UHGV virus genome: UHGV-0168080
DNA from: a virus
DNA length: 23,956 bases
Strand: one strand, 5' to 3'
The notes beneath the pieces were generated by a model. That model was not told the origin of the DNA, searched no databases, and saw only the letters and a program-made list of their open reading frames with translations. Below are positions 4,216 to 19,454 of the stretch, in pieces (the first letter of the stretch is position 1; the number at the start of each line of letters is the position of its first letter). Made by a program: the position numbers and the translations under genes.

Positions 4216-4790
4216 TGGCATTCAGAATGAGTGAACAACCACGGACCATAAAAATTTATAATCTGCTGGCCGGAACTAATGAATTTATTGGTGAAGGTGA
4301 CGCATACATTCCGCCTCATACAGGTCTGCCAGCAAACAGTACCGATATTGCACCGCCAGATATTCCGGCTGGCTTCGTGGCTGTTTTCAACAGTGATGAT
4401 GCATCGTGGCATCTTGTTGAAGACCATCGGGGTAAAACAGTTTATGACGTGGCATCAGGGGACGCGTTATTTATTTCTGAACTCGGTCCGTTACCGGAAA
4501 ATGTTACCTGGTTATCGCCGGAAGGGGAATATCAGAAGTGGAACGGCACAGCCTGGGTGAAAGATGCAGAAGCAGAAAAACTATTCCGGATCCGGGAGGC
4601 GGAAGAAACAAAAAACAGCCTGATGCAGGTAGCCAGTGAGCATATTGCGCCGCTTCAGGATGCGGTAGATCTTGAGATCGCAACGGAGGAAGAGAAATCG
4701 TTACTGGCCGCATGGAAGACATATCGGGTGTTGTTGAATCGTGTTGATACATCACTATCTCCAGATATCGAGTGGCCAAGTCAACCATAA
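4215..4790 (+). CDS. tfa: Tail fibre assembly protein Tfa
   Basis: 191 aa, lambda Tfa-like ([48 protein letters not shown]...); the start overlaps the stf stop (TAATG). Confidence 0.9.
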
Positions 4791-9665: not shown

Positions 9666-10448
9666 CTATTTATTGGTGATTTCTGCTGGCTTTAGCTGCG
9701 CGGATAACTGCTCAAGTTTTTGAACTGCCAGTTCAAAATGCGCGGGCAACGCCTTTTCCAGATCAGAGTTAATATCGGTGATGGGCAAATCACCACACGA
9801 CATACTCCGCCTACCCCCACGAACAACATCACGCAACAACTCTCGTTCATACGTGCGCATGTTCCCCAATGCCGACTCAGCAGCCGTTAAAATCCGGCGC
9901 AGTTCTGCCGTAATTGCTGGTAAATCATCAACCGTTATGGGGTTCGGGGATGGATTACGACACGCCCGACGCAAAGCCAACCATACACCGCTAATCCAGG
10001 CATTTCGGTACTGAAAACTTTGTGCTATATCGTTGATCAGCCCTCGCAGATACTCTTTCTGCCTCCAGTTCAACGGCTCTGCTGCTCGCATTGGCTCAGG
10101 TTCGACGTAAACGTACTCTCCATTCTTACGAATAGAGGGCAGGACCTCGTTCGTTACCCATTTACGAAACCGCCATGCAGTCGTGCCCTGTTTTACAGCG
10201 TCACGGCAGCGGAGGATCAGGGTGTATAGACCTGACTCTGAAATAATATTTAGCTTTTGCTCTCCGCCAGGGGTGTAACTTAAAGTTACACCCTTTTCAT
10301 CCTCATCCAGAGACATTAGCGCCTTCCGGGAGTTAACGAGTCTTAAAGCATCACATACATCCTTAGCCACAAACCACGGCTCGCCGTTAATCATCACTAC
10401 ACGAACCTGATGCTCTTCCTGAAAGGAAAAGACTGCTAACGCGCTCAT
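9666..10448 (-). CDS. Bro-N domain antirepressor (Ant-like)
   Basis: 260 aa; N-terminal Bro-N hallmarks (F.F......VRVVMINGEPWFVAKDVCDAL...LDEDEKG...GGEQKLNIISESGLYTLIL); strong RBS AAGGAGG; last gene of a three-gene operon with ATGA overlaps. Confidence 0.8.
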   Translation of the reverse strand: MSALAVFSFQEEHQVRVVMINGEPWFVAKDVCDALRLVNSRKALMSLDEDEKGVTLSYTPGGEQKLNIISESGLYTLILRCRDAVKQGTTAWRFRKWVTNEVLPSIRKNGEYVYVEPEPMRAAEPLNWRQKEYLRGLINDIAQSFQYRNAWISGVWLALRRACRNPSPNPITVDDLPAITAELRRILTAAESALGNMRTYERELLRDVVRGGRRSMSCGDLPITDINSDLEKALPAHFELAVQKLEQLSAQLKPAEITNK

Positions 10449-10675
10449 TCAGCCTCCTTACCCAGCAATTGCGACGAGAGCGACGCGGAATACCCCTGTG
10501 CTTCATGAGTTAACTCACACGCGATTTGAAGGAGCTTCCCGGCTTCTGATAGATAAATCGACGCCTCACAGCTGGATACTGTCCGATGGGCTGATGATAC
10601 GAGCGCATAGACCTGAGCCAGACGTTCATCCAACGACTCCAGCAGGCCAACAGTGTTCATTTTTACCTGATTCAT
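10445..10675 (-). CDS. Small protein of the antirepressor operon (function unknown)
   Basis: 76 aa; RBS GAGGTGG; start overlaps the upstream stop and stop overlaps the ant start. Confidence 0.6.
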   Translation of the reverse strand: MNQVKMNTVGLLESLDERLAQVYALVSSAHRTVSSCEASIYLSEAGKLLQIACELTHEAQGYSASLSSQLLGKEAE

Positions 10676-10836
10676 ACAGCCACCTCGCGCACCGGAATAC
10701 GGGCAGACAATACCAGGACAAACCGGCTGGCGAACTGGCGACGAGCTTCCCGTTCAGATGACGCGATGGTGGAAAGATGATGGATGTGTGACTTTTTGTC
10801 TGTGCGAACGACTGCCGCAAATTTGAATTTGAACAT
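10672..10836 (-). CDS. Small first gene of the antirepressor operon (54 aa; Icd-like by position only)
   Basis: Not in the supplied ORF track (under 60 aa). Read by hand on the minus strand: MFKFKFAAVVRTDKKSHIHHLSTIASSEREARRQFASRFVLVLSARIPVREVAV; GGAG RBS; its stop overlaps the next start (ATGA). Confidence 0.45.
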   Translation of the reverse strand: MFKFKFAAVVRTDKKSHIHHLSTIASSEREARRQFASRFVLVLSARIPVREVAV

Positions 10837-10891
10837 GGTATGCACTCCGTTTAATTGGTCGTGCTACCACCAGAGTTCTCACGCTCTTGAA

Positions 10892-10973
10892 TGGTGGTAG
10901 CCCAAGCGGGGGTGAGAATACCGGCAAACGAAGAAACCGGCCTGACCGAAGTCAGCCCCGCCTGAGCCACCAT
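10892..10973 (-). ncRNA. Structured RNA-like element A in the antirepressor operon leader (candidate c4/CA-type antisense immunity RNA or its target module)
   Basis: About 82 nt bounded by GGTGG...CCACCA; minus-strand fold gives a long closing stem and an internal hairpin CUGAC-UUCG-GUCAG. Paralogue of element B. Confidence 0.45.
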
Positions 10974-11207
10974 AAATCGGATATGCGCAGGTATATACAC
11001 ACAAAAAAACACGCTGGCGCGTGTTGTGCGCTTCGTTTATCCGGGTTCTCACGCCCGGCTGCGGGATTTACCGCAGCGGAATAACTTTACCGTCAAAACG
11101 ACGCACACGTCAATAATTTGCAAAGACATTTTACCCTGTGACCAGTCACGGGGATAGGTGTTTTTATAGTTTGCTTAAACAAATGATTAGAAGATAAACG
11201 ATATTGT

Positions 11208-11287
11208 GGTGGTAGCCCAGGCAGGGTTCTCAACACCGGCCCAAACGACACCGGCCAGCCTTTCGGCTGCCCCGCCTGAACTACCAT
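11208..11287 (-). ncRNA. Structured RNA-like element B, paralogue of element A
   Basis: Same architecture and end motifs (GGTGGTAGCCCA...CCCCGCCTGA); the internal hairpin is CAGCC-GAAA-GGCUG on the minus strand, so the stem is kept by compensatory changes. Confidence 0.45.
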
Positions 11288-11390
11288 TAGAATAATATAC
11301 AACAAAACGTAGCATTTTTATTACATTAAAATATAAATATTGTTTACACTTTACTTTACTAATGGGGCGGCTCGGGCTATCCTGATTTTG

Positions 11391-11406
11391 CTGTATAAAA
11401 ACACAG
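11391..11406. promoter_or_regulatory. LexA (SOS) box CTGTATAAAAACACAG upstream of cma
   Basis: Fits CTGT-N8-ACAG; lies about 60 bp upstream of the colicin M ATG, as is usual for colicin promoters. Confidence 0.6.
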
Positions 11407-11467
11407 TATTTATGCAGCGATTAAACCTGTATGTCTGTTATTTCATTAACTTATAAGGGTTTTTGAT

Positions 11468-12283
11468 ATGGATACTATCGTTGTGACAGCTCCATCACCA
11501 TCAACTAACTTACCGAGTTATGGTAATGGCGCATTTTCTCTCTCAGCACCACACGTGCCTGGTTCTGGCCCCCTTTTAGTCCAGGTGGTTTACAGCTTTT
11601 TCCAGAGCCCAAACATGTGTATTCAGGCTCTAACTCAGCTTGAGGACTACATCAAAAAACACGGTGCCAGCGATCCCCTGACATTACAAATTATGTCAAC
11701 AAATATTGCCTACTTCTGTAACGCTGACAGAAACCTTATCCTTCACCGCGGAATAAGTGTTTATGACGCCTACCACTTAGCTAAACCTGCGCCAAATAAA
11801 TATGACTATCGCTCAATGAATATGAAACAAATGAGCGGTAATGTCACAACACCAATTGTGGCGCTTGCACACTATTTATGGGGTAATGGTGCAGACCGAA
11901 GCGTTAATATCGCAAATATTGGTCTCAAAATTTCTCCGATGAAAATTAATCAGATAAGAGATATTGTAAAATCTGGTGTAGTAGGCACATTCCCTATTTC
12001 TACAAAATTCACACACGCCACTGGCGATTATAATGTTATTACCGGCGCATATCTTGGTAATATCACGCTGAAAACAGAAGGTACTTTAACTGTCTCCGCT
12101 AATGGCTCATGGACCTATAATGGCGTTGTTCGCTCGTATAACGACAAGTATGACTTCAATGCCAGCACTCATCGTGGCGTAATCGGAGAGTCTCTTACAA
12201 GGCTCGGGGCGATGTTCTCTGGTAAAGAGTATCAGATACTACTTCCTGGCGAAATTCACATTAAAGAAAGTGGCAAGCGATAA
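11468..12283 (+). CDS. cma: Colicin M (lipid II-targeting bacteriocin)
   Basis: 271 aa, same length as colicin M and collinear with it as I recall the sequence (..APSPSTNLPSYGNGAFSLSAPHVPG.GPLLVQVVYSFFQSPNMC.QALTQLEDYIKKHGAS ... ILLPGEIHIKESGKR). Confidence 0.93.
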   Translation: MDTIVVTAPSPSTNLPSYGNGAFSLSAPHVPGSGPLLVQVVYSFFQSPNMCIQALTQLEDYIKKHGASDPLTLQIMSTNIAYFCNADRNLILHRGISVYDAYHLAKPAPNKYDYRSMNMKQMSGNVTTPIVALAHYLWGNGADRSVNIANIGLKISPMKINQIRDIVKSGVVGTFPISTKFTHATGDYNVITGAYLGNITLKTEGTLTVSANGSWTYNGVVRSYNDKYDFNASTHRGVIGESLTRLGAMFSGKEYQILLPGEIHIKESGKR

Positions 12284-12284
12284 T

Positions 12285-12311
12285 AAAAAGGCCGGGATTC
12301 CGGCCTTTTTT
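12285..12311. terminator. Bidirectional intrinsic terminator between cma and cmi
   Basis: AAAAA-GGCCGG-GATT-CCGGCC-TTTTTT: GC stem with an A-tract before and a T-tract after. Confidence 0.75.
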
Positions 12312-12333
12312 ATGCAGTCTTTATACCGATGTA

Positions 12334-12690
12334 TCAATCATTTGCATATTCAACATAACCTTCCTTGCAATGGTACATTCCATAATACATTCTCTTACCT
12401 TCCGGGCCTTCGGCTTTAAATGGGACGAGAAGCGTTTTTTCATCTTTAACATCTGTTAAGCTTCTTTCAATCTTTTCCCACGTAATTTTTGGGGCTTCTG
12501 TACCGAGAAGTTGTACATCGTTATTCCAACGCGTTATTTTTTTCAAAAAGTCATTTTTTACAAATTCTCTTGCCTGTTCATCACTAACCTTATAGCACTC
12601 TGGGCCTTTATTAGATTCAGGCCAGAAAAATACAATAGCAAGAGCAATAATTGATAAAATCAAAATGATTTTTATGCTAATTACTTTCAT
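12334..12690 (-). CDS. cmi: Colicin M immunity protein Cmi
   Basis: 118 aa; N-terminal membrane anchor (ILILSIIALAIVFFW) and strong resemblance to Cmi (..YKVSDEQAREFVKND....WNNDVQLLGTE.PKITWEKIERSLTDV.DEKTLLVPFKAEGP.GKRMYYGMYHC.EGYVEYAND); convergent with cma. Confidence 0.9.
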   Translation of the reverse strand: MKVISIKIILILSIIALAIVFFWPESNKGPECYKVSDEQAREFVKNDFLKKITRWNNDVQLLGTEAPKITWEKIERSLTDVKDEKTLLVPFKAEGPEGKRMYYGMYHCKEGYVEYAND

Positions 12691-13603: not shown

Positions 13604-16600
13604 TTACCCATAGAAAGCGCCCTGCTCTTCGTAGCTGCATGGGCTATTCCCGGTAATATATTCACGTAACCGCCGCAGTTCATTACTGGACAAGTGATCC
13701 ATGAACTCTGTTAGGTACAGAGATGCAAACGTCATAGCTATGCTGGCTGATGACCATGATGACATAGTGGCCAGCTCCTCACAGGAAAGCGCACTCATAG
13801 CCCAGGACTCAGGTACAGCCACCGGCAACACTGCCAAAGCCTCAGAAATTACTGAATGAGGGGCGTTTTGAACCTGCTCATTTGTGGATCGCGTTTTATC
13901 ATCCATATATATATTGAGATCCAAATCGCGATCCATTTCGATGGCGGTCTTCTCGGCTTTGCGCGTTTTCAGGGTTAGGCCATCTTTCTGACGCTGAGCA
14001 AGAATATCCAGCATAAATGCCGCTGATTCAGGCTCAACAAAACGCAAGGTTGGACGCTTATCGCCGTCTCTGCCACGACGTTTACCTGTTTTAAGGCCAA
14101 GAGAGTCGCAAATGTTTTTAAACAACGCTTCCGGCACTTTAGGCTTCCCTTTTGGCGTCATAAAACCACCAATGTGCAGAACGTTATTCAACAGGTCACG
14201 GCGTTCGGCTGTCATGAGGTTATCTCGAGCGAATTTGAGACGCTCCTGAGTCGCCTCGCCGGTCATAGTCTCAGGGTTGATACCGCAGTCGATAAAGTAC
14301 TGCCGGAGAGTTGCTGATTTAAGCGCATAGAAACCGCGCGCCCCGACTTCAACAGTAGGAGTAGCTTTTACCTTGTAGTCGATTATTCCAGGGAATTTAG
14401 TTTTAAAGACATCATCAGCCTGCTCGCGAGTCATCGCGGTCACTACAAAATATTGCCACTGTCCCGCCTGACGGTATGCGTAGGTAAAATTGATGGCTGC
14501 TTCTTCCCGGTCGTAACGACGAGCTGTTACCTCATCTAAAAGCATTGTTTCATAGCGGCGAACTTTGTCTCGAGCACCATCGAAATAGAATTTCAGCGTG
14601 CCTTCTTCAACCGGTAGTTTCAGTTCGTTCTCAATATCCCAGCGGACAAGTTTTGCCTGTTCTTCAAGCGTCAGCGCGCGTTTTTTTAGCAGTTCTTCAC
14701 GCTCTGATTCTTGTGGAGTTTCTGTATTGAGATGCAGATCCAGTGTCTGTTCCCACACAATATCCCGCGCTTCTTTACGCAGATCTTTACCGATATCATT
14801 CGCAGCATAATCGGTGGCCAGCGGCGATACCTTATAACCGTCGCTGTGCATGATGCAGATCATGTTGCTGGCGTAGTCGTTACGCGCAGACGCTTCAATT
14901 GCGGCTGCTTTAATTTTCATCCTGGTAAAGTCGGTATTGGCCACCCCCATTGATATACGGTCGCCATCGAAAACGACATCCGTCAGTTCACCGTTCATGC
15001 CTGCGGTAGCAAGCAATGCCTGGGCGAATGCTCGTTCTATTTTTTGCGGGTCAGTTTCACGTTTTGCGCGAGCTTTATCAAAGCCGATAATAAATTCTTT
15101 TGCTGTACGGTCGCGGCGTAGCATTTGCACTGCGTCGCTGGGTACAACTTCACCACAGAACATGCCGAAATGACGGTCAAAATGTTTTTGCTCAATCGAC
15201 ACGCCGGATGAAATAGACGGGCTATAAATCAGGCCGTCGTATTTTTTGACCATCTTTTTCGGTTGATTGGTAAATGCTTCAACTTCTGGCTCTGGTTTGT
15301 TTTTCTGGTTTACACACAGAAATTTCTTACCAGGAAAATGCATTCTCAGGGTGGCGGTCACATCTTCTGCAAAGGTGGAGCTGTCGGTGGCCAACATAAT
15401 TTTTTCGCCATCCGATACAGCTTTCACCACCTCGGTCATAATGCGATCTTTTTCTGTATAAAAAACCCGGATTGGCTCACCTGTTTCGCGGTTGCGAACA
15501 TCAACAGGTAATTCAATTACGTGGATCTGCAGCCATGCGGGTAAACCGAGTTCTTCGCGGCGTTTCATAGCCAGTTCAGCCAGGTCAACCAGCAGATCGT
15601 TCGCATCAGCATCCACCATGATTGGGTGTTGTTCCGTTCTGGCCAGCGCATCAATTAGCGTATTGAATACAGCCACCGGGTTTTCCATAGCCCGACCGGA
15701 AAGAACGGCACGTAGCCCTTGTGTTGCCTCGTCAAAGCCAAAATAGTCGTGCTGGCGCATCAACGGTTGCCAGCAGTTTTTAACAATCGAGTTTATGCAG
15801 ATGGTCAGTTTACTGGCGTATGGGGCCATTTCCTGATAGCCAGGGTCCTGATAGTGCAGGATATCGGCTTTTACACCTTTTCCTTCAGTCATCATTTCCC
15901 ACAGACCACCAATAAGGGAAACACGGTGAGCTACAGAGATACCACGTTCTGAGCTATGCATTAACGGTCGTAACAATCCAGTAGATTTGCCGGAACCCAT
16001 ACCAGCACGGACGATGACTATCCCCTGTAGTGATTGCACGTACTTCAGGACGTCATCGGTCATTACCGAAGTATCAAAACGCTTATAGGTGATATGTTGA
16101 GGGCGTTTATTGGGATCAGTTATGCGTTCGCTGAAAGAGCGCGGAGCCTGGGCAATACGGCACTTTTTATTCAGGCGACGGGCAATATGGTCTTTTACCG
16201 TAGCGCGATAGATATTTTCCAGCCCCATTTCACGCAGAACGATACAGAACATGTTAAATAAATCTGACGGGCTGTTAGGAACCGGACAGGTCAGCATGCC
16301 AATATCTACCGCTCTCAGCAGCTCTTTGGCAAAAGTACGGCGGTTATCCCGCTTAATTGTCTTCAGGCGGTTGAGTGTCAGAGATAGCAAATCAGTACCG
16401 GTTTTCAGGCGGTTTGCTGTTGCGAATAGTTGACGTGCTGTTTCACGAAGTCCACGTAGTTTGTGCAGGTCGTTGAAGTCACTGCACTCCATTTGCGGAT
16501 CGTCTTCAAAAGTTGGGTAGACGCAGCGGACATCGTTGAATTTAGATAAGATTTCATAGCCAGTCCGCAGGCCGGTATTCCCTTTTCCTTCTGTGGCAGA

Positions 16601-17599
16601 TTTCCGGTCATTATCCAGTGCGCAGGTGATTTTTGCCGCCGGGTACATGTTTACCAGTTGTTCCACAACATGAACCATGTTGTTAGCGGATACAGCGACA
16701 ACCACAGCGTCAAAGCGTTTATCTTTTTTCGTGGCAAGCCAGATGGATGCACCAGTAGCAAAACCTTCTGTAACAGCGATGTTTTGCGCCCCTTTCAGCT
16801 CACCGATAACAAAGCAGGCACCGACGAAATCGCCGCTGGTTACTGCGCTGGTCTGGTATTTCCCACCTTGTTTGTCGATTCGCTGCCAACCCACAATACG
16901 ACCATCATAACGACCGTCCAGGTGAGCCAGAGGGATAGCCATATATGTGGTTGGCCCCCGGCTCCATTTCGCACTGTCGTGACTGGTCACGCGACGCACA
17001 TCACATGAACTAAAAACGTCACGAATACCTTTTTTAATCGCATATGGCCATGAGCCGTCTTCAGCCTGAGCATGTTCCCACGCGCTGTGGAATGCCAGCC
17101 ATCCCAGCAAACGTTCATGGTCCATTTGGTTGTTTTTCAGGTCATTAATTCGTTTTTGTTCTTCACGGCGACGACGTGCTTCGGCCTGACGTTCTATTCT
17201 TTCCCGTTCTTCTTCCGGTTGTGCGACCACGGTCGCATTATTCCGTTGTTGCTCACGGCGATATTCAGAAAACAGGAAGGAGAAACCGCTCCATGAGCCA
17301 GCATCGCTGCCTTTATGGACGAAGTTAATGAACGGGTAATCAATCCCTTTGCTGTGTTCCAGCCTGGAGTAAATTTCTACGCGTCCTTTCAGGCTCTTTT
17401 CGAGAGCTTCTGGAGATGTTTTATTGTATGAAGAGTAACGCTCAACCCCCCCGCGAGGGTTGAGTTGGATGTTGTCGGAACAGGCAGGCCAGTTGATACC
17501 AGCCATCTGTGCCAGCTCGGTTAGTTCATCCCGTGCTGCTTCAATTAGCGAGAACGGATCGCTGCCAAAGCGATCCGCATAGAAATCGTTTAATGTCAT
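13604..17599 (-). CDS. repA: Replication protein RepA (multidomain primase-helicase, N15 RepA-like)
   Basis: 1331 aa; Walker A GMGSGKSTG inside a helicase-like core; size and position (upstream of cB, same strand) match N15 repA. Confidence 0.92.
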   Translation of the reverse strand: MTLNDFYADRFGSDPFSLIEAARDELTELAQMAGINWPACSDNIQLNPRGGVERYSSYNKTSPEALEKSLKGRVEIYSRLEHSKGIDYPFINFVHKGSDAGSWSGFSFLFSEYRREQQRNNATVVAQPEEERERIERQAEARRRREEQKRINDLKNNQMDHERLLGWLAFHSAWEHAQAEDGSWPYAIKKGIRDVFSSCDVRRVTSHDSAKWSRGPTTYMAIPLAHLDGRYDGRIVGWQRIDKQGGKYQTSAVTSGDFVGACFVIGELKGAQNIAVTEGFATGASIWLATKKDKRFDAVVVAVSANNMVHVVEQLVNMYPAAKITCALDNDRKSATEGKGNTGLRTGYEILSKFNDVRCVYPTFEDDPQMECSDFNDLHKLRGLRETARQLFATANRLKTGTDLLSLTLNRLKTIKRDNRRTFAKELLRAVDIGMLTCPVPNSPSDLFNMFCIVLREMGLENIYRATVKDHIARRLNKKCRIAQAPRSFSERITDPNKRPQHITYKRFDTSVMTDDVLKYVQSLQGIVIVRAGMGSGKSTGLLRPLMHSSERGISVAHRVSLIGGLWEMMTEGKGVKADILHYQDPGYQEMAPYASKLTICINSIVKNCWQPLMRQHDYFGFDEATQGLRAVLSGRAMENPVAVFNTLIDALARTEQHPIMVDADANDLLVDLAELAMKRREELGLPAWLQIHVIELPVDVRNRETGEPIRVFYTEKDRIMTEVVKAVSDGEKIMLATDSSTFAEDVTATLRMHFPGKKFLCVNQKNKPEPEVEAFTNQPKKMVKKYDGLIYSPSISSGVSIEQKHFDRHFGMFCGEVVPSDAVQMLRRDRTAKEFIIGFDKARAKRETDPQKIERAFAQALLATAGMNGELTDVVFDGDRISMGVANTDFTRMKIKAAAIEASARNDYASNMICIMHSDGYKVSPLATDYAANDIGKDLRKEARDIVWEQTLDLHLNTETPQESEREELLKKRALTLEEQAKLVRWDIENELKLPVEEGTLKFYFDGARDKVRRYETMLLDEVTARRYDREEAAINFTYAYRQAGQWQYFVVTAMTREQADDVFKTKFPGIIDYKVKATPTVEVGARGFYALKSATLRQYFIDCGINPETMTGEATQERLKFARDNLMTAERRDLLNNVLHIGGFMTPKGKPKVPEALFKNICDSLGLKTGKRRGRDGDKRPTLRFVEPESAAFMLDILAQRQKDGLTLKTRKAEKTAIEMDRDLDLNIYMDDKTRSTNEQVQNAPHSVISEALAVLPVAVPESWAMSALSCEELATMSSWSSASIAMTFASLYLTEFMDHLSSNELRRLREYITGNSPCSYEEQGAFYG
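13885..13935. other. Candidate internal replication origin element inside the 3' end of repA
   Basis: 9-bp inverted repeat TGGATCGCG (13885-13893) / CGCGATCCA (13927-13935) flanking an (AT)5 tract. Confidence 0.3.
17222..17237. repeat. sopC-like centromere box TGCGACC-AC-GGTCGCA (candidate SopB binding site) inside repA
   Basis: 16-bp palindrome with the same architecture as the F sopC core TGGGACC-AC-GGTCCCA. Confidence 0.5.
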
Positions 17600-17844: not shown

Positions 17845-18441
17845 TCATCTACCCTCAACCATGAATGATTTGATCGTTCCGACTATTTGGTGAACAAATT
17901 CAAGATCGCTTTTCCTGAAGATGGCGCGTTGTGAGTTTGTTCCATCCAGATAGTAATTTTCATCATCAAAACGGGCCAGGCGCTGGATAGTGATATTTCC
18001 TGCAGTATCACGAACCAGAACATCCTCGCCGGGGACCAGTTCCAGCGCAGAATCGACCAGGAGAAAATCGCCTGGCTGATAGTTTCCCTGCGTAAGATTG
18101 CTGATAGTTAACGCATAAACAGTATTGCGCTGGCTGATGAATGGCAGGAATCGCTCAGTATTTGGAACCTGTCCTGGCTTCCACTCTTCATCAGGTCCAC
18201 TTTCAGTTGTGCCAATAACAGGAATGCGATCAGGGTCATATTCTGTCCCATACAGCACCCAATGCACTGGCTTGCGTAAGCATTTAGCCAGGGCAATACC
18301 TATCTCCAGTGACGGCATTACGTCGCCACGTTCTAAGTTTTGGACGCCTGCAATAGAGATATCGACAGCCTCAGCAACTTCTCGCAACGTCAGCTTCATC
18401 TCTAAACGGCGTGCTTTCAGTCGTTCGCCTCGTGTTTTCAT
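17845..18441 (-). CDS. cB: Prophage repressor CB (CI-like: N-terminal XRE HTH plus C-terminal LexA/S24-like domain)
   Basis: 198 aa; HTH LTLREVAEAVDISIAGVQNLERG; C-terminal region aligns by eye to the LexA/CI fold; divergent from cro across an operator region. Confidence 0.85.
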   Translation of the reverse strand: MKTRGERLKARRLEMKLTLREVAEAVDISIAGVQNLERGDVMPSLEIGIALAKCLRKPVHWVLYGTEYDPDRIPVIGTTESGPDEEWKPGQVPNTERFLPFISQRNTVYALTISNLTQGNYQPGDFLLVDSALELVPGEDVLVRDTAGNITIQRLARFDDENYYLDGTNSQRAIFRKSDLEFVHQIVGTIKSFMVEGR

Positions 18442-18463
18442 AGCTTAATCATAAATGATCTTC

Positions 18464-18505
18464 TTATAGCTGGCTATAAAATTTATTTATTATAGCTGGC
18501 TTTAA
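18464..18505. promoter_or_regulatory. Tandem palindromic operators TTATAGC-TG-GCTATAA between cB and cro
   Basis: Perfect copy at 18464-18479 and near-perfect copy (TTATAGCTGGCTTTAA) at 18490-18505, 26 bp centre-to-centre. Confidence 0.6.
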
Positions 18506-18532
18506 TTGTTGTTTATTGTTTATAATAACAAC

Positions 18533-18754
18533 ATGAAACCAGAAGAACTTATTCGCCACTTTGGCAGTGTAGAAAAAGCAGCGGCAGGGGTAGGTGTAAC
18601 ACCCGGAGCTGTTTACCAATGGTTAACCGCTGGAGAGATTCCTTCATTGCGGCAAAGCGATATTGAAGTTCGTACTGCTTATAAGCTGAAGAGTGACTTT
18701 ACAACTCGGCGGGTAAAGCAGTCGATTAAGGAGAGTCGTAAGCGTGGAGCTTGA
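18533..18754 (+). CDS. cro: Cro-like repressor (HTH)
   Basis: HTH segment GSVEKAAAGVGVTPGAVYQWL; divergent from cB. The ATG at 18533 has no clear SD (the ORF-track start at 18506 is TTG), so the start is uncertain. Confidence 0.6.
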   Translation: MKPEELIRHFGSVEKAAAGVGVTPGAVYQWLTAGEIPSLRQSDIEVRTAYKLKSDFTTRRVKQSIKESRKRGA

Positions 18755-19454
18755 GTATATACGCAGCTGCGTCTCTACGGCATTGGCTGATGTTCATTAT
18801 CGCCAGCGTGGCATTCTGGAGGTCCAGCTTGAGCAGATGCGTCTCGGTAGATCAGGACGGTTTAACAATAAACCAGTCCGGTCAATCAGTGTGGGGGATG
18901 ATAACTCATACGAAGTGTCCGTTCCTGCTGAGCCGGTAAGATTCCACCAGGGGAAAACATTTAAACAATCATCAATGTTGCTCACTGATATTGATTTTCA
19001 GAGCGCCAGCTGGCGCAGGGCTATTGGTCAGTTGAATAACGAGGAATCAGCCTGGCTTTATTATTGCTACGGATGCAAGCCAGATTACAACAATGATGTG
19101 ATTGTTTGTCAGTGGTTATGGCTTGATTTTCTGGTTGCTCATTCGGGGGGCGGCTTTAAAAAAATGAAGGCCTCCACGAAAAAAGCCATGCGGAAATTGA
19201 TTTATTACGCGGCACAGCAGGTTAAATCAGAACTTACGTGTGCTGAGGCAGTTGATGAGAGAGAACAGGACAGGCATCTGAGTTTTCTGCTGAATATATC
19301 TATTGATAGCTGGAGACAAGATTATAAAGAACGCTGGCTTTTAATTAAGTCGCGATGTCTGAGCTTAAATCGAACTGCATTATTAAATGCGGCGGAGAAG
19401 CGCAGTGAAATCATCAAACGCCATCGGGCAGGAAGTGCCATTCTGCCTTTGTAA
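18744..19454 (+). CDS. Putative late-gene antiterminator (Q-like by position) or unknown early protein
   Basis: 236 aa; GTG start with strong RBS AAGGAGAG; lies directly after cro as Q does in N15. The family is not confirmed from sequence. Confidence 0.35.
   Translation: MELEYIRSCVSTALADVHYRQRGILEVQLEQMRLGRSGRFNNKPVRSISVGDDNSYEVSVPAEPVRFHQGKTFKQSSMLLTDIDFQSASWRRAIGQLNNEESAWLYYCYGCKPDYNNDVIVCQWLWLDFLVAHSGGGFKKMKASTKKAMRKLIYYAAQQVKSELTCAEAVDEREQDRHLSFLLNISIDSWRQDYKERWLLIKSRCLSLNRTALLNAAEKRSEIIKRHRAGSAILPL

What the first reader, a model, noticed from the sequence alone, without database searches (positions are those of the whole stretch)
10838..11291. Two paralogous structured RNA-like elements with compensatory stem changes upstream of the antirepressor operon
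Elements A (10892-10973) and B (11208-11287) share the ends GGTGGTAGCCCA...CCCCGCCTGA and an internal hairpin at the same relative position whose stem differs but stays paired (A: CUGAC/GUCAG; B: CAGCC/GGCUG). Read on the minus strand, the strand of the operon, the loops are UUCG and GAAA, both canonical stable tetraloops; on the plus strand they are not. The 3' segment GCUACCACCA of each element is complementary to UGGUGGUAGC located about 25 nt upstream of the first gene's RBS (plus 10863-10872), so alternative or trans pairing could gate translation. This looks like a c4 (P1) / CI (P4) / CA (N15) type antisense-RNA immunity switch, here apparently duplicated.
Basis: partly seen in the sequence, partly recalled or inferred. 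Interest (0 to 1): 0.75.

Follow-up and report, generated by a model that had tools for sequence, protein, structure and literature searches.

The report
Own and foreign-type C4 immunity RNAs
Both elements are C4/CA-type antisense RNA genes of an N15-like phage-plasmid: one is the phage's ordinary switch on its antirepressor operon, while the other is an extra copy tuned to a rival phage that shares the same main repressor, so it may widen immunity.

Summary
Both elements are minus-strand members of Rfam C4 (RF01695): A at 10890-10977 scores 82 bits and B at 11205-11291 scores 69 bits, against a gathering score of 45. The window is an N15-like telomere phage-plasmid.

A is the orthologue of N15 CA RNA. 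It sits in the standard layout: promoter, isrK (a1/b1 decoy with terminator), C4, a2/b2, icd, orf76, Bro-N antirepressor.

It uses the 3' junction (a') and the hairpin-2 loop (b'). These match one site in a small hairpin and one over the icd Shine-Dalgarno, and they co-vary with both across 29 distinct leaders. The UGGUGGUAGC box is better explained as the 5' arm of a hairpin covering the start codon.

B lies upstream of the operon promoter, has no isrK of its own and is non-cognate for its own operon. Its a'/b' are identical to those of phage YDC107_1, whose primary repressor is 100% identical to this phage's. That is the P1/P7 heteroimmunity set-up. Extra heterotypic C4 copies occur at the same boundary in three other telomere phages.

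The C4/CA switch is already known. The orphan heterotypic copy is a new variant, and whether it is expressed is untested.

The parts
10890..10977 (-). C4-A: the resident C4/CA antisense RNA gene. It has a 17-bp closing stem, hairpin 1 (UUCG loop), hairpin 2, and an ACCACCA 3' end.
   Evidence: Rfam RF01695 82.2 bits, gathering score 45; MFE fold equals the Rfam structure, z = -6.6; orthologous to the N15 cA locus
10925..10936 (-). b' of A: the hairpin-2 loop UUUCUUCGUUUG, antisense to b2 (icd Shine-Dalgarno) and to b1 in isrK.
   Evidence: duplex -8.6 kcal/mol with b2 and -9.0 with b1; cognate pairs beat non-cognate in 0/10000 permutations
10912..10919 (-). a' of A: the single-stranded junction AUUCUCAC, antisense to a2 and a1.
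   Evidence: 7 pairs, 100% paired in 29 sequences, 5 pairs with changes on both sides; duplex -9.2 kcal/mol
10872..10887 (-). a2 presentation hairpin: AGAG / CUCU stem with the loop CGUGAGAA (a2 = 10876-10882).
   Evidence: predicted by RNAalifold and by single-sequence folding; loop co-varies with a'
10845..10852 (-). b2: AAACGGAG, which contains the GGAG Shine-Dalgarno of the icd-like gene.
   Evidence: sequence; pairs with b' including one G-U
10835..10870 (-). Start-codon hairpin. b2 and most of the Shine-Dalgarno lie in the loop.
   Evidence: RNAalifold; 98.5% of cells paired, 3 pairs with changes on both sides; leader alone folds this way, z = -3.2
10672..10836 (-). icd-like first gene of the operon (54 aa).
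   Evidence: ORF; annotated 'host cell division inhibitor Icd-like' in relatives; 96% identical to N15
10445..10675 (-). Second operon gene (76 aa, N15 gp31 equivalent).
   Evidence: ORF with overlapping stop/start; N15 annotation
9666..10448 (-). Bro-N antirepressor (260 aa).
   Evidence: Pfam Bro-N 9.8e-22; N15 gene 30 'anti-repressor Ant'
11004..11077 (-). isrK-type leader RNA carrying a1 (GUGAGAA, 11046-11052, in the hairpin-2 loop) and b1 (AAACGAAG, 11031-11038), ending in a rho-independent terminator (11001-11025).
   Evidence: Rfam RF01394 64.1 bits, gathering score 50; terminator scan; a1/b1 co-vary with a'/b', 0/10000 permutations
11084..11113 (-). Operon promoter TTGACG-18-TAAAGT, firing into the first base of isrK.
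   Evidence: the only sigma-70-like site on this strand in 10800-11480; conserved in relatives
11205..11291 (-). C4-B: an extra, heterotypic C4 gene. b' is UGUCGUUUGGG (11240-11250) and a' is GUUGAGAA (11227-11234). It lies upstream of the operon promoter at the edge of the cargo region.
   Evidence: Rfam RF01695 69.2 bits; canonical fold at -49.4 kcal/mol, z = -5.0; a'/b' identical to the YDC107_1 C4; non-cognate for its own leader
17845..18441 (-). Primary prophage repressor CB (198 aa, HTH_3 plus S24-like), the presumed target of the antirepressor.
   Evidence: Pfam; 100% identical to the YDC107_1 repressor; gene >=98.7% identical in 29 Escherichia/Shigella telomere plasmids

Best explanation
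The locus is the anti-immunity (immA) control region of an N15-like telomere phage-plasmid, read on the minus strand.

The operon promoter (11113->11084) makes a short isrK-type RNA that ends at its own terminator. Read-through continues into C4-A, the leader and the icd / orf76 / Bro-N antirepressor genes.

C4-A is cut out of this transcript. By analogy with P1/P7 c4, RNase P would cut at AU|GGU next to a tRNA-like ACCA end. C4-A then pairs through two single-stranded modules. The junction a' (AUUCUCAC) pairs with a2 (GUGAGAA), which is displayed in a small hairpin loop. The hairpin-2 loop b' (CUUCGUUU) pairs with b2 (AAACGGAG), which covers the icd Shine-Dalgarno. This blocks icd translation and, through coupling or polarity, antirepressor synthesis, so the CB repressor stays active.

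A conserved hairpin that also covers the start codon adds to the off state. isrK carries decoy copies (a1/b1) of both sites.

C4-B is a separate, structurally intact C4 gene placed upstream of the promoter at the cargo boundary. Its a'/b' modules do not match this phage's own sites. They exactly match those of YDC107_1-type phages, which encode the identical CB repressor and a 90% identical antirepressor.

The most likely role of B is therefore in trans: it would silence the antirepressor operon of a superinfecting YDC107_1-type relative. That operon would otherwise escape C4-A, inactivate the shared repressor and induce the resident prophage. This is the P1/P7 heteroimmunity logic, with one genome carrying two specificities.

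Shown here: family membership, fold, module/target matching, B's non-self specificity, the shared repressor, and recurrence of extra copies in other phages. Inferred: RNase P processing, translational repression, and above all the expression and trans-action of B.
For: Family and strand:
- Rfam C4 hits on the minus strand for A and B, with isrK between them.
- The same C4 + isrK layout in N15 and in 9 other relatives.
- Fold z-scores and strand asymmetry.

Covariation on 29 distinct C4-plus-leader sequences:
- 99.6% of cells are paired and 14 pairs have changes on both sides; 0/500 shuffles reach this.
- Hairpin 1 has double changes at 4 of 5 pairs.
- a'-a2 has double changes at 5 of 7 pairs and is 100% paired.

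Duplex energies:
- a'-a2: cognate -8.4 against non-cognate -0.9 kcal/mol.
- b'-b2: cognate -9.7 against non-cognate -6.1 kcal/mol.
- 0/10000 permutations reach the cognate sum, and the same holds for a1/b1 in isrK.

B specifically:
- Against its own leader: a' +0.3 and b' -5.7 kcal/mol. Against the YDC107_1 leader: -8.7 and -8.4.
- No B-type target in the window apart from B's own complement.
- None in the closest complete 45-kb relative.
- B lies upstream of the only promoter-like site.
- B differs from the YDC107_1 C4 at 5 paired columns, all still pairing (P = 0.0002-0.057), and at none in a', b' or hairpin 1.

Shared immunity:
- CB repressor 100% identical to YDC107_1.
- Icd 100%, orf76 98.6% and antirepressor 90.4% identical.
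- One cB allele but at least 4 a'/b' combinations among Escherichia telomere plasmids.

Recurrence:
- Extra heterotypic C4 copies at the homologous boundary in L029, L054 and the E. cloacae plasmid CP056463.1, all above the Rfam gathering score.
- A half-deleted remnant at the same position in L037.

Literature:
- c4 a'/b' roles, RNase P processing at GGW, and a 4-nt difference between P1 and P7 being enough to restrict cross-reaction (PMC5320573).
- IsrK acts in trans to switch on antirepressor translation (PMC4825925).
- The antirepressor AntA of one telomere phage acts on another (PMC10612081).
Against: - No evidence that B is transcribed. The consensus scan finds no promoter upstream of it. 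The only candidate is a lone -10-like TATATT (11294-11299) with a poor -35.
- B's exact a'/b' match to YDC107_1 is equally expected if B is a recent dead copy of such a C4.
- The pair-preserving substitutions may have arisen in a functional ancestor before B was copied.
- The extra copies in L029, L054 and CP056463.1 have b' loops that match no resident C4 among about 60 loci, so their supposed rival phages are unidentified.
- The two-copy arrangement with colicin M has no second example in the phage, plasmid, E. coli or IMG/VR collections.
- Only 24 kb of the genome is visible, so a B-type target elsewhere in this phage cannot be excluded.
- The N15 primary paper (Ravin et al. 1999) could not be read. 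Whether CA RNA acts on translation or on termination in this group rests on analogy.
Confidence: 0.6

Rival explanations
1. B is a non-functional or recently orphaned C4 copy. It would be a by-product of recombination at the boundary between the variable cargo region (here a colicin M cassette) and the immA control region, left without a promoter or a target.
For: - No consensus promoter upstream.
- No isrK of its own and no cognate target in the window.
- It sits exactly where cargo swaps occur (telocin locus in PMC12042878).
- L037 shows that such copies can decay.
- The arrangement is unique in the collections searched.
Against: - Full-length, above the Rfam gathering score, canonical MFE fold.
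- All 5 stem differences from the nearest resident C4 keep pairing.
- Homology to other C4 genes stops exactly at the ends of the RNA unit, which does not fit a simple unequal crossover carrying flanks along.
- Intact extra copies recur at the same position in three other phages from different hosts.
Confidence: 0.28
2. One reading: the 3' segment GCUACCACCA of C4 pairs, in cis or in trans, with the UGGUGGUAGC box in the leader and thereby gates icd translation.
For: - 10-nt perfect complementarity, 3 exact occurrences against about 1 expected.
- The box is invariant or pairable in all 29 distinct leaders; 100% of cells can pair.
- Such pairing would compete with the start-codon hairpin and so could act as an activating switch in unprocessed transcripts (inference).
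Against: - No pair with changes on both sides, and indistinguishable from shuffles.
- A->G changes in the C4 3' strand are compensated inside the C4 stem (U->C) and not in the box.
- C->U changes in the box are compensated by G->A near the AUG, within the local hairpin.
- The segment is locked in a 17-bp stem.
- The segment is identical in A and B and in all relatives, so it cannot explain specificity, which tracks a'/b'.
Confidence: 0.1
3. B acts on its own phage as an anti-antisense. Its a' (UUGAGAA) resembles A's target and can pair with A's a' (UUCUCA), so B would titrate C4-A, as isrK does, and tune or trigger antirepressor expression.
For: The A-a' x B-a' duplex is 6 bp, -6.1 kcal/mol. 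Decoy logic already exists in the locus (isrK a1/b1; IsrK activates anrP in Gifsy-1).
Against: - Weaker than the genuine a2/a1 sites (-9.2 kcal/mol).
- B's b' offers nothing to pair with A's b'.
- The near-complementarity follows from the two specificity types being strand-swapped versions of one another, as also seen for N15 compared with this window.
- Two structured three-way junctions would have to pair through junction strands.
Confidence: 0.05
4. B regulates a cognate target outside the 24-kb window, either a second icd-like module or a host gene.
For: Klebsiella telomere plasmids carry a second complete C4-icd module elsewhere in the genome. C4-like RNAs with varied a' have been proposed to target bacterial mRNAs in Acinetobacter (PMC5320573).
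Against: The closest complete relative has one C4, one A-type target pair and no B-type target in 45 kb. The second modules seen in Klebsiella bring their own C4 and isrK.
Confidence: 0.07

Closest known systems
CA RNA of the phage-plasmid N15 anti-immunity locus (immA; Ravin, Svarchevsky & Deho 1999, cited; paper not readable here)
   Same: - Same kind of replicon: protelomerase, RepA, and cB-cro-Q in the same order.
- Same gene order: telN, Bro-N antirepressor, gp31, icd, C4, isrK with terminator, promoter.
- 78.8% DNA identity over 10599-11176.
- The N15 locus gives the same Rfam C4 + isrK hits.
[quoted passage not shown]
   Different: N15 has a different specificity (a' GUUGAGAA, b' UUUCUUCUUGUA). 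It has no second C4 upstream of the promoter. In the N15 records the RNA gene is annotated as a protein (gene 32 / cA CDS).
c4 antisense RNA of P1 and P7 (immI operon: a1b1-c4-a2b2-icd-ant; Citron & Schuster 1990, as summarised in PMC5320573)
   Same: Same Rfam family. The fold is a three-way junction, and two loops a'/b' pair with a2/b2, with b' over the icd ribosome-binding site. A second target copy lies upstream. Processing from the operon's own leader occurs at a GGW motif. P1 and P7 share their primary repressor but differ in c4, which makes them heteroimmune; the window phage and YDC107_1 have the same relationship.
   Different: P1 and P7 each carry one c4 of their own type. Here a single genome carries its own type plus a foreign type that is placed outside the operon. 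The a1/b1 copy here is packaged as a terminated isrK-type RNA.
IsrK / orf45 / AnrP locus of Salmonella prophage Gifsy-1 (PMC4825925)
   Same: An isrK-family RNA that ends at a terminator, with read-through into an antirepressor operon. The short RNA acts in trans on the long transcript. An ~80-nt processed species arises from the downstream part.
   Different: In Gifsy-1 the region downstream of isrK was interpreted as a small ORF (orf45), and regulation was described as activation by IsrK. Here the C4 element is explicit, and isrK is read as its a1/b1 decoy. No experiments were done here.
Multicopy C4-like sRNAs of Acinetobacter baumannii (PMC5320573)
   Same: Several C4-fold RNAs with different a' regions in one genome. 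The authors suggested that some might target incoming phage.
   Different: Those copies are dispersed in the chromosome of a distant host and have no known cognate phage. Here the extra copy sits beside the resident switch in a phage genome, and its cognate phage, with an identical repressor, is identified.

Membership tests
C4 antisense RNA (Rfam RF01695) | Covariance-model score at or above the curated gathering score (45 bits) | tested here: met
   A scores 82.2 bits and B 69.2 bits, both full length (1-87/87), minus strand
C4 antisense RNA (Rfam RF01695) | Three-way junction fold (long closing stem plus two hairpins) supported by covariation | tested here: met
   MFE fold equals the model structure for A and B; hairpin 1 has double changes at 4 of 5 pairs, the closing stem at 1 pair plus 7 one-sided; 0/500 shuffles reach this
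C4 antisense RNA (Rfam RF01695) | Two single-stranded modules a'/b' complementary to a2/b2 in the leader of an icd-ant operon, with b2 over the ribosome-binding site | tested here: met
   Met for A. For B it is not met on its own operon (a' +0.3 kcal/mol) but is met on YDC107_1-type leaders
C4 antisense RNA (Rfam RF01695) | Encoded within the leader of the operon it controls, downstream of the operon promoter | tested here: inconclusive
   A: yes, 26 nt after the isrK terminator and downstream of TTGACG-18-TAAAGT. B: no, it lies upstream of that promoter with no recognisable promoter of its own
C4 antisense RNA (Rfam RF01695) | Upstream duplicate target (a1/b1; Rfam c4-a1b1 RF03163 / isrK) | tested here: met
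   A has isrK at 64.1 bits with a1 and b1 present and co-varying; c4-a1b1 passes its gathering score in relatives. B has no such element upstream
C4 antisense RNA (Rfam RF01695) | Processed to about 77 nt by RNase P at a GGW motif | not testable with these tools
   AU|GGU and an ACCACCA 3' end are present in both copies; the motif is as described in PMC5320573; no RNA data
N15 CA RNA (orthologue) | Same position in a telomere-phage immA operon and nucleotide homology to N15 cA | tested here: met
   A: 78.8% identity to N15 at 28009-28588, with syntenic genes. B: not covered by the N15 match
isrK (Rfam RF01394) | Gathering score (50 bits), three hairpins with a terminal rho-independent terminator | tested here: met
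   64.1 bits at 11004-11077; terminator scan; fold
P4 CI RNA / seqA-seqC immunity | Antisense pairing that causes premature transcription termination | not tested
   Only a literature statement that C4/IsrK are structural homologues of CI/seqA (PMC3632133); no P4 sequence was compared

The most novel reading that the evidence does not exclude
Telomere phage-plasmids keep small arrays of tRNA-like C4 units with non-self a'/b' modules at the cargo/immA boundary. These would act as an RNA repertoire that silences the antirepressor switches of rival phages sharing the same primary repressor. In effect this is multi-specificity 'anti-anti-immunity' that broadens superinfection immunity and protects the prophage from induction by relatives. 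The a' and b' modules reassort independently to create and counter new specificities.
Probability: 0.35. Interest if true: 0.7.

Novelty: new variant of a known kind. Interest (0 to 1): 0.45.

Why it matters
The core element is textbook: C4/CA antisense control of an antirepressor. Confirming it mainly corrects annotation, because relatives label the RNA gene as 'ash family protein' or as a 'cA' protein.

The extra copy is the interesting part. Escherichia telomere phage-plasmids share one primary repressor allele but have diversified their antisense specificities (at least four a'/b' combinations). That predicts P1/P7-style heteroimmunity and induction of one phage by another. A genome that carries a rival's specificity as well as its own would be a simple, testable case of RNA-based competition between phages. 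It would also give a natural, modular set of orthogonal antisense/target pairs, with about five a' types and seven or more b' types seen here.

The extra copy sits next to a bacteriocin cargo site, so two competition functions may be linked at one locus.

Tried and rejected
- Permissive (G-U allowed) scan for targets of A and B across the window: hundreds of hits, uninformative. Replaced by strict searches.
- Exact-core scans of IMG/VR for B-, x1- and x2-type C4: returned only loci already in hand.
- Pattern scan for two C4 3' cores 295-320 nt apart in metagenomes: 26 loci, none with a C4. The same scan in IMG/VR returned only L029's contig plus one irrelevant locus.
- Genome-contig search with the Icd protein: only two loci, one of them a deletion variant.
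- Ravin 1999 and Mardanov 2007 could not be read. Searches for an accessible description of the N15 CA RNA mechanism found only brief mentions.
- Pfam on the ORFs upstream of the x2-x1 arrays: nothing except DUF5448. My idea that a bacteriocin lysis gene feeds those arrays is unsupported and dropped. The promoter-like TTGCAA-17-TAATAT seen by eye there did not pass the scan.
- K. pneumoniae pC606_3 (L066) looked like a multi-copy candidate from BLAST but has a single C4.
- LR883007 and CP056845 looked B-type from BLAST but carry an A-type a' with a B-like b'.
- Plus-strand or cma-promoter function for the elements: rejected on covariance-model and folding asymmetry.
Full report
**What the window is.** The region matches N15-like (Ravinvirus) linear phage-plasmids. 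Phage YDC107_1 matches at 89% identity over the operon, N15 itself at 78.8% over 10599-11176, and E. coli plasmids such as pEC12401-3 at 96%.

The gene order on the minus strand is as in N15:
- RepA (13604-17599) and small genes.
- A cargo site.
- The control region that contains the finding.
- An icd-like gene (10672-10836), a 76-aa gene (10445-10675) and a Bro-N antirepressor (9666-10448).

Protelomerase lies beyond that on the plus strand. The primary immunity genes cB, cro and Q are at 17845-19454.

**Check of the observation.**
- Rfam's C4 model (RF01695) matches both elements full length on the minus strand: A at 10890-10977 with 82.2 bits and B at 11205-11291 with 69.2 bits, against a gathering score of 45.
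- Both fold by minimum free energy into exactly the model's three-way junction, with z = -6.6 and -5.0. The plus strands fold less well and differently.
- A covariance model built from eight relatives scores 101.9 and 93.0 bits on the minus strand against 26.4 and 18.9 on the plus strand.
- A and B are 67.8% identical. Most differences are in unpaired segments, and the hairpin-1 differences are compensatory.

**Anatomy of the resident switch.** The only sigma-70-like promoter on the minus strand is TTGACG-18-TAAAGT at 11113->11084. It would start transcription at the first base of isrK.

isrK folds into three hairpins, and the last is a rho-independent terminator. C4-A starts 26 nt after the terminator's U-run, so it must be made from read-through transcripts.

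According to the summary of the P1/P7 work in PMC5320573:
- c4 is cut from its precursor by RNase P at a GGW motif.
- Loop b' occludes the ribosome-binding site.
- Loop a' binds an upstream site.
- Four nucleotide differences between P1 and P7 are enough to restrict cross-reaction.

Here AU|GGU and a tRNA-like ACCACCA end are present in both copies.

In A, the hairpin-2 loop (b', UUUCUUCGUUUG, 10925-10936) pairs with AAACGGAG (10845-10852), which contains the icd GGAG. The junction after hairpin 2 (a', AUUCUCAC, 10912-10919) pairs with GUGAGAA (10876-10882), which sits in the loop of a small AGAG/CUCU hairpin. The same two target motifs recur inside isrK: a1 at 11046-11052 in the loop of its second hairpin, and b1 at 11031-11038 in single-stranded RNA.

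**Comparative evidence.** I collected about 60 related loci: 10 annotated records, 48 IMG/VR loci and 2 genome contigs. All have one resident C4 preceded by isrK.

On 29 distinct C4-plus-leader sequences (alignment A3), RNAalifold independently recovers the C4 fold, the a2 hairpin and a further hairpin over the start codon. Pair counts on that alignment:
- 99.6% of cells are paired and 14 pairs have changes on both sides; 0/500 shuffles reach this.
- Hairpin 1 has double changes at 4 of 5 pairs.
- The a'-a2 interaction, written as a pseudoknot, is 100% paired with double changes at 5 of 7 pairs (for example CG:14, GC:12, UA:3 at one pair).

The b'-b2 register differs between types, so I used duplex energies for it:
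- b'-b2: cognate -9.7 against non-cognate -6.1 kcal/mol.
- a'-a2: cognate -8.4 against non-cognate -0.9 kcal/mol.
- 0 of 10,000 permutations of C4 against leader reach the cognate total.

The a1/b1 sites in isrK track the C4 modules equally well (0/10,000). Their b1 sites match better than b2, as expected for a decoy. The a' and b' modules reassort: about five a' types and at least seven b' types occur in many combinations.

The box UGGUGGUAGC (10863-10872) is indeed a perfect complement of the last 10 nt of both C4 copies, and it can pair in every relative. But no pair shows a change on both sides, and the counts equal the shuffled controls.

The few informative variants point elsewhere:
- A->G in the C4 3' strand (L038, L039) is compensated by U->C in the C4 5' strand, not in the box.
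- C->U in the box (L029, L055) is compensated by G->A in GUGCAUACC next to the AUG.

The box is therefore best read as the 5' arm of a hairpin (10835-10870) that pairs with the A and U of the start codon and the last G of the Shine-Dalgarno. That hairpin leaves b2 in its loop.

**What B is.** B is a complete C4 unit, but it lies upstream of the operon promoter and has no isrK of its own. It sits immediately next to a diverged, apparently SOS-controlled colicin M / immunity cassette.

Its modules are b' UGUCGUUUGGG and a' GUUGAGAA. They do not fit its own operon but fit YDC107_1-type leaders and isrK at cognate level:

| B module against | Own operon (kcal/mol) | YDC107_1 type (kcal/mol) |
|---|---|---|
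| a' against a2 | +0.3 | -8.7 |
| b' against b2 | -5.7 | -8.4 |
| a' against isrK a1 | -3.5 | -9.3 |
| b' against isrK b1 | -8.5 | -15.0 |

Strict searches find B-type target motifs in the window only as B's own complement. The closest complete relative (45 kb) has none.

B is 89.7% identical to the YDC107_1 C4. It shows no difference in a', b' or hairpin 1, and five single-sided stem differences that all keep pairing. That outcome has probability 0.0002-0.057, depending on transition bias. Homology stops exactly at the ends of the RNA unit.

**Why a foreign specificity could matter.** The window's CB repressor is 100% identical to the one encoded by YDC107_1. The Icd, orf76 and antirepressor proteins are 100%, 98.6% and 90.4% identical.

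All 29 Escherichia/Shigella telomere plasmids in PLSDB carry a cB gene at least 98.7% identical to this one. Yet at least four a'/b' combinations occur among phages and plasmids with this repressor. This is the P1/P7 configuration: interchangeable primary repressors with non-cross-reacting c4 (plus my own knowledge of P1/P7 heteroimmunity).

An incoming YDC107_1-type genome would escape C4-A, express its antirepressor and inactivate the shared repressor. A resident B RNA would prevent this. Antirepressor cross-action between telomere phages has been shown for P840 antA on PY54 (PMC10612081).

**Recurrence.** Extra C4 copies are rare but not unique. IMG/VR contigs L029 and L054 and the Enterobacter cloacae plasmid CP056463.1 each carry two additional copies (x2, x1), at 64-66 bits in Rfam. 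Their modules differ from the resident copy's.

In those loci x1 ends within a few bases of the same conserved block (TGATCA repeats, AAGCAAACTATAAAAA, a GTGAC-GGTCAC palindrome, then the promoter) that follows B in the window. L037 has a half-deleted x1 remnant at that position.

The tandem units are separated by 11 nt and follow a terminator hairpin, so they would be made by read-through and processed like a tRNA array. That last point is inference.

**Weak points.**
- B's expression is unproven. No consensus promoter precedes it, and the only candidate is a -10-like TATATT positioned to start at B's 5' end.
- The match to YDC107_1 and the intact structure would also be seen in a recent dead copy.
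- The b' loops of x1 and x2 match no resident C4 in my sample.
- The mechanism downstream of pairing (translation block and polarity, or termination) rests on P1 and Gifsy-1 work, because the N15 paper was not available.

**Verdict.**
- Element A is an ordinary orthologue of a known regulator.
- The proposed 3'-end pairing is not the recognition mechanism.
- Element B is an orphan C4 of non-self specificity that matches a co-circulating phage with an identical repressor, and it has positional counterparts in other telomere phages. This is a new variant worth an experiment.

My confidence is above 0.9 that A is the resident C4/CA switch acting through a'/b'. It is about 0.4-0.45 that B is an expressed, trans-acting cross-immunity RNA, and about 0.3 that B is an inert relic.

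Noticed in passing
window 4558-4756 (+): Full-length match to Rfam IS009 (RF02111), 199 bits against a gathering score of 117. It lies in a part of the window not shared with the closest relative.
   Followed up: no
window 11392-11407 and 11468-12690: A diverged colicin M (cma, 271 aa) and immunity (cmi) cassette, 86.5% identical to pColBM. It sits at the cargo site where Klebsiella telomere phages carry 'telocins'. It is preceded by a LexA-box-like CTGTATAAAAACACAG (seen by eye), so the toxin is probably SOS-controlled.
   Followed up: partly
window 10851-11052 (-) ORFs; L001 1574-1864; L004 2755-2877: Public records annotate protein genes over the C4 RNA gene: 'ash family protein', and N15 'gene 32' / 'cA secondary immunity repressor'. 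These are probably mis-annotations of an RNA gene.
   Followed up: partly
window 11134-11153 (-), and 11175-11204: The palindrome CCCCGTGACTGGTCACAGGG just upstream of the operon promoter is conserved in all loci and may be an operator. A TGATCA...TGATCA repeat further upstream, intact in most relatives, is degenerate in this window.
   Followed up: no
L070 (CP067518.1 32714-37800), C4 at 2504-2590: Klebsiella telomere plasmids of about 55 kb carry a second complete promoter-isrK-C4-a2b2-icd module about 15 kb from immA, followed by a small gene and a transposase.
   Followed up: partly
L061 1416-1503 (contig labelled Limoniibacter endophyticus): The C4 5' half is fused directly to the b2/Shine-Dalgarno region. 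A deletion of about 70 nt removes a', the C4 3' strand, a2 and the box. This predicts a C4-null, derepressed operon, or it is an assembly or contamination artefact.
   Followed up: no
L098, L099 (NZ_LR883007.1, CP056845.1): These plasmids combine an A-type a' (AUUCUCAC) with a B-like b' (UAUCGUUUGGG). The modules therefore recombine independently. A and B together would cover both target sites of this hybrid type, but from two different RNAs.
   Followed up: partly
L029 808-940; L054 ~810-940: The x2-x1 C4 array starts 10 nt after a GC-rich hairpin with a T8 run, which closes a short unannotated region with small ORFs of 37-43 and 112 aa and no Pfam hit. What drives transcription of the array is unknown.
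   Followed up: partly
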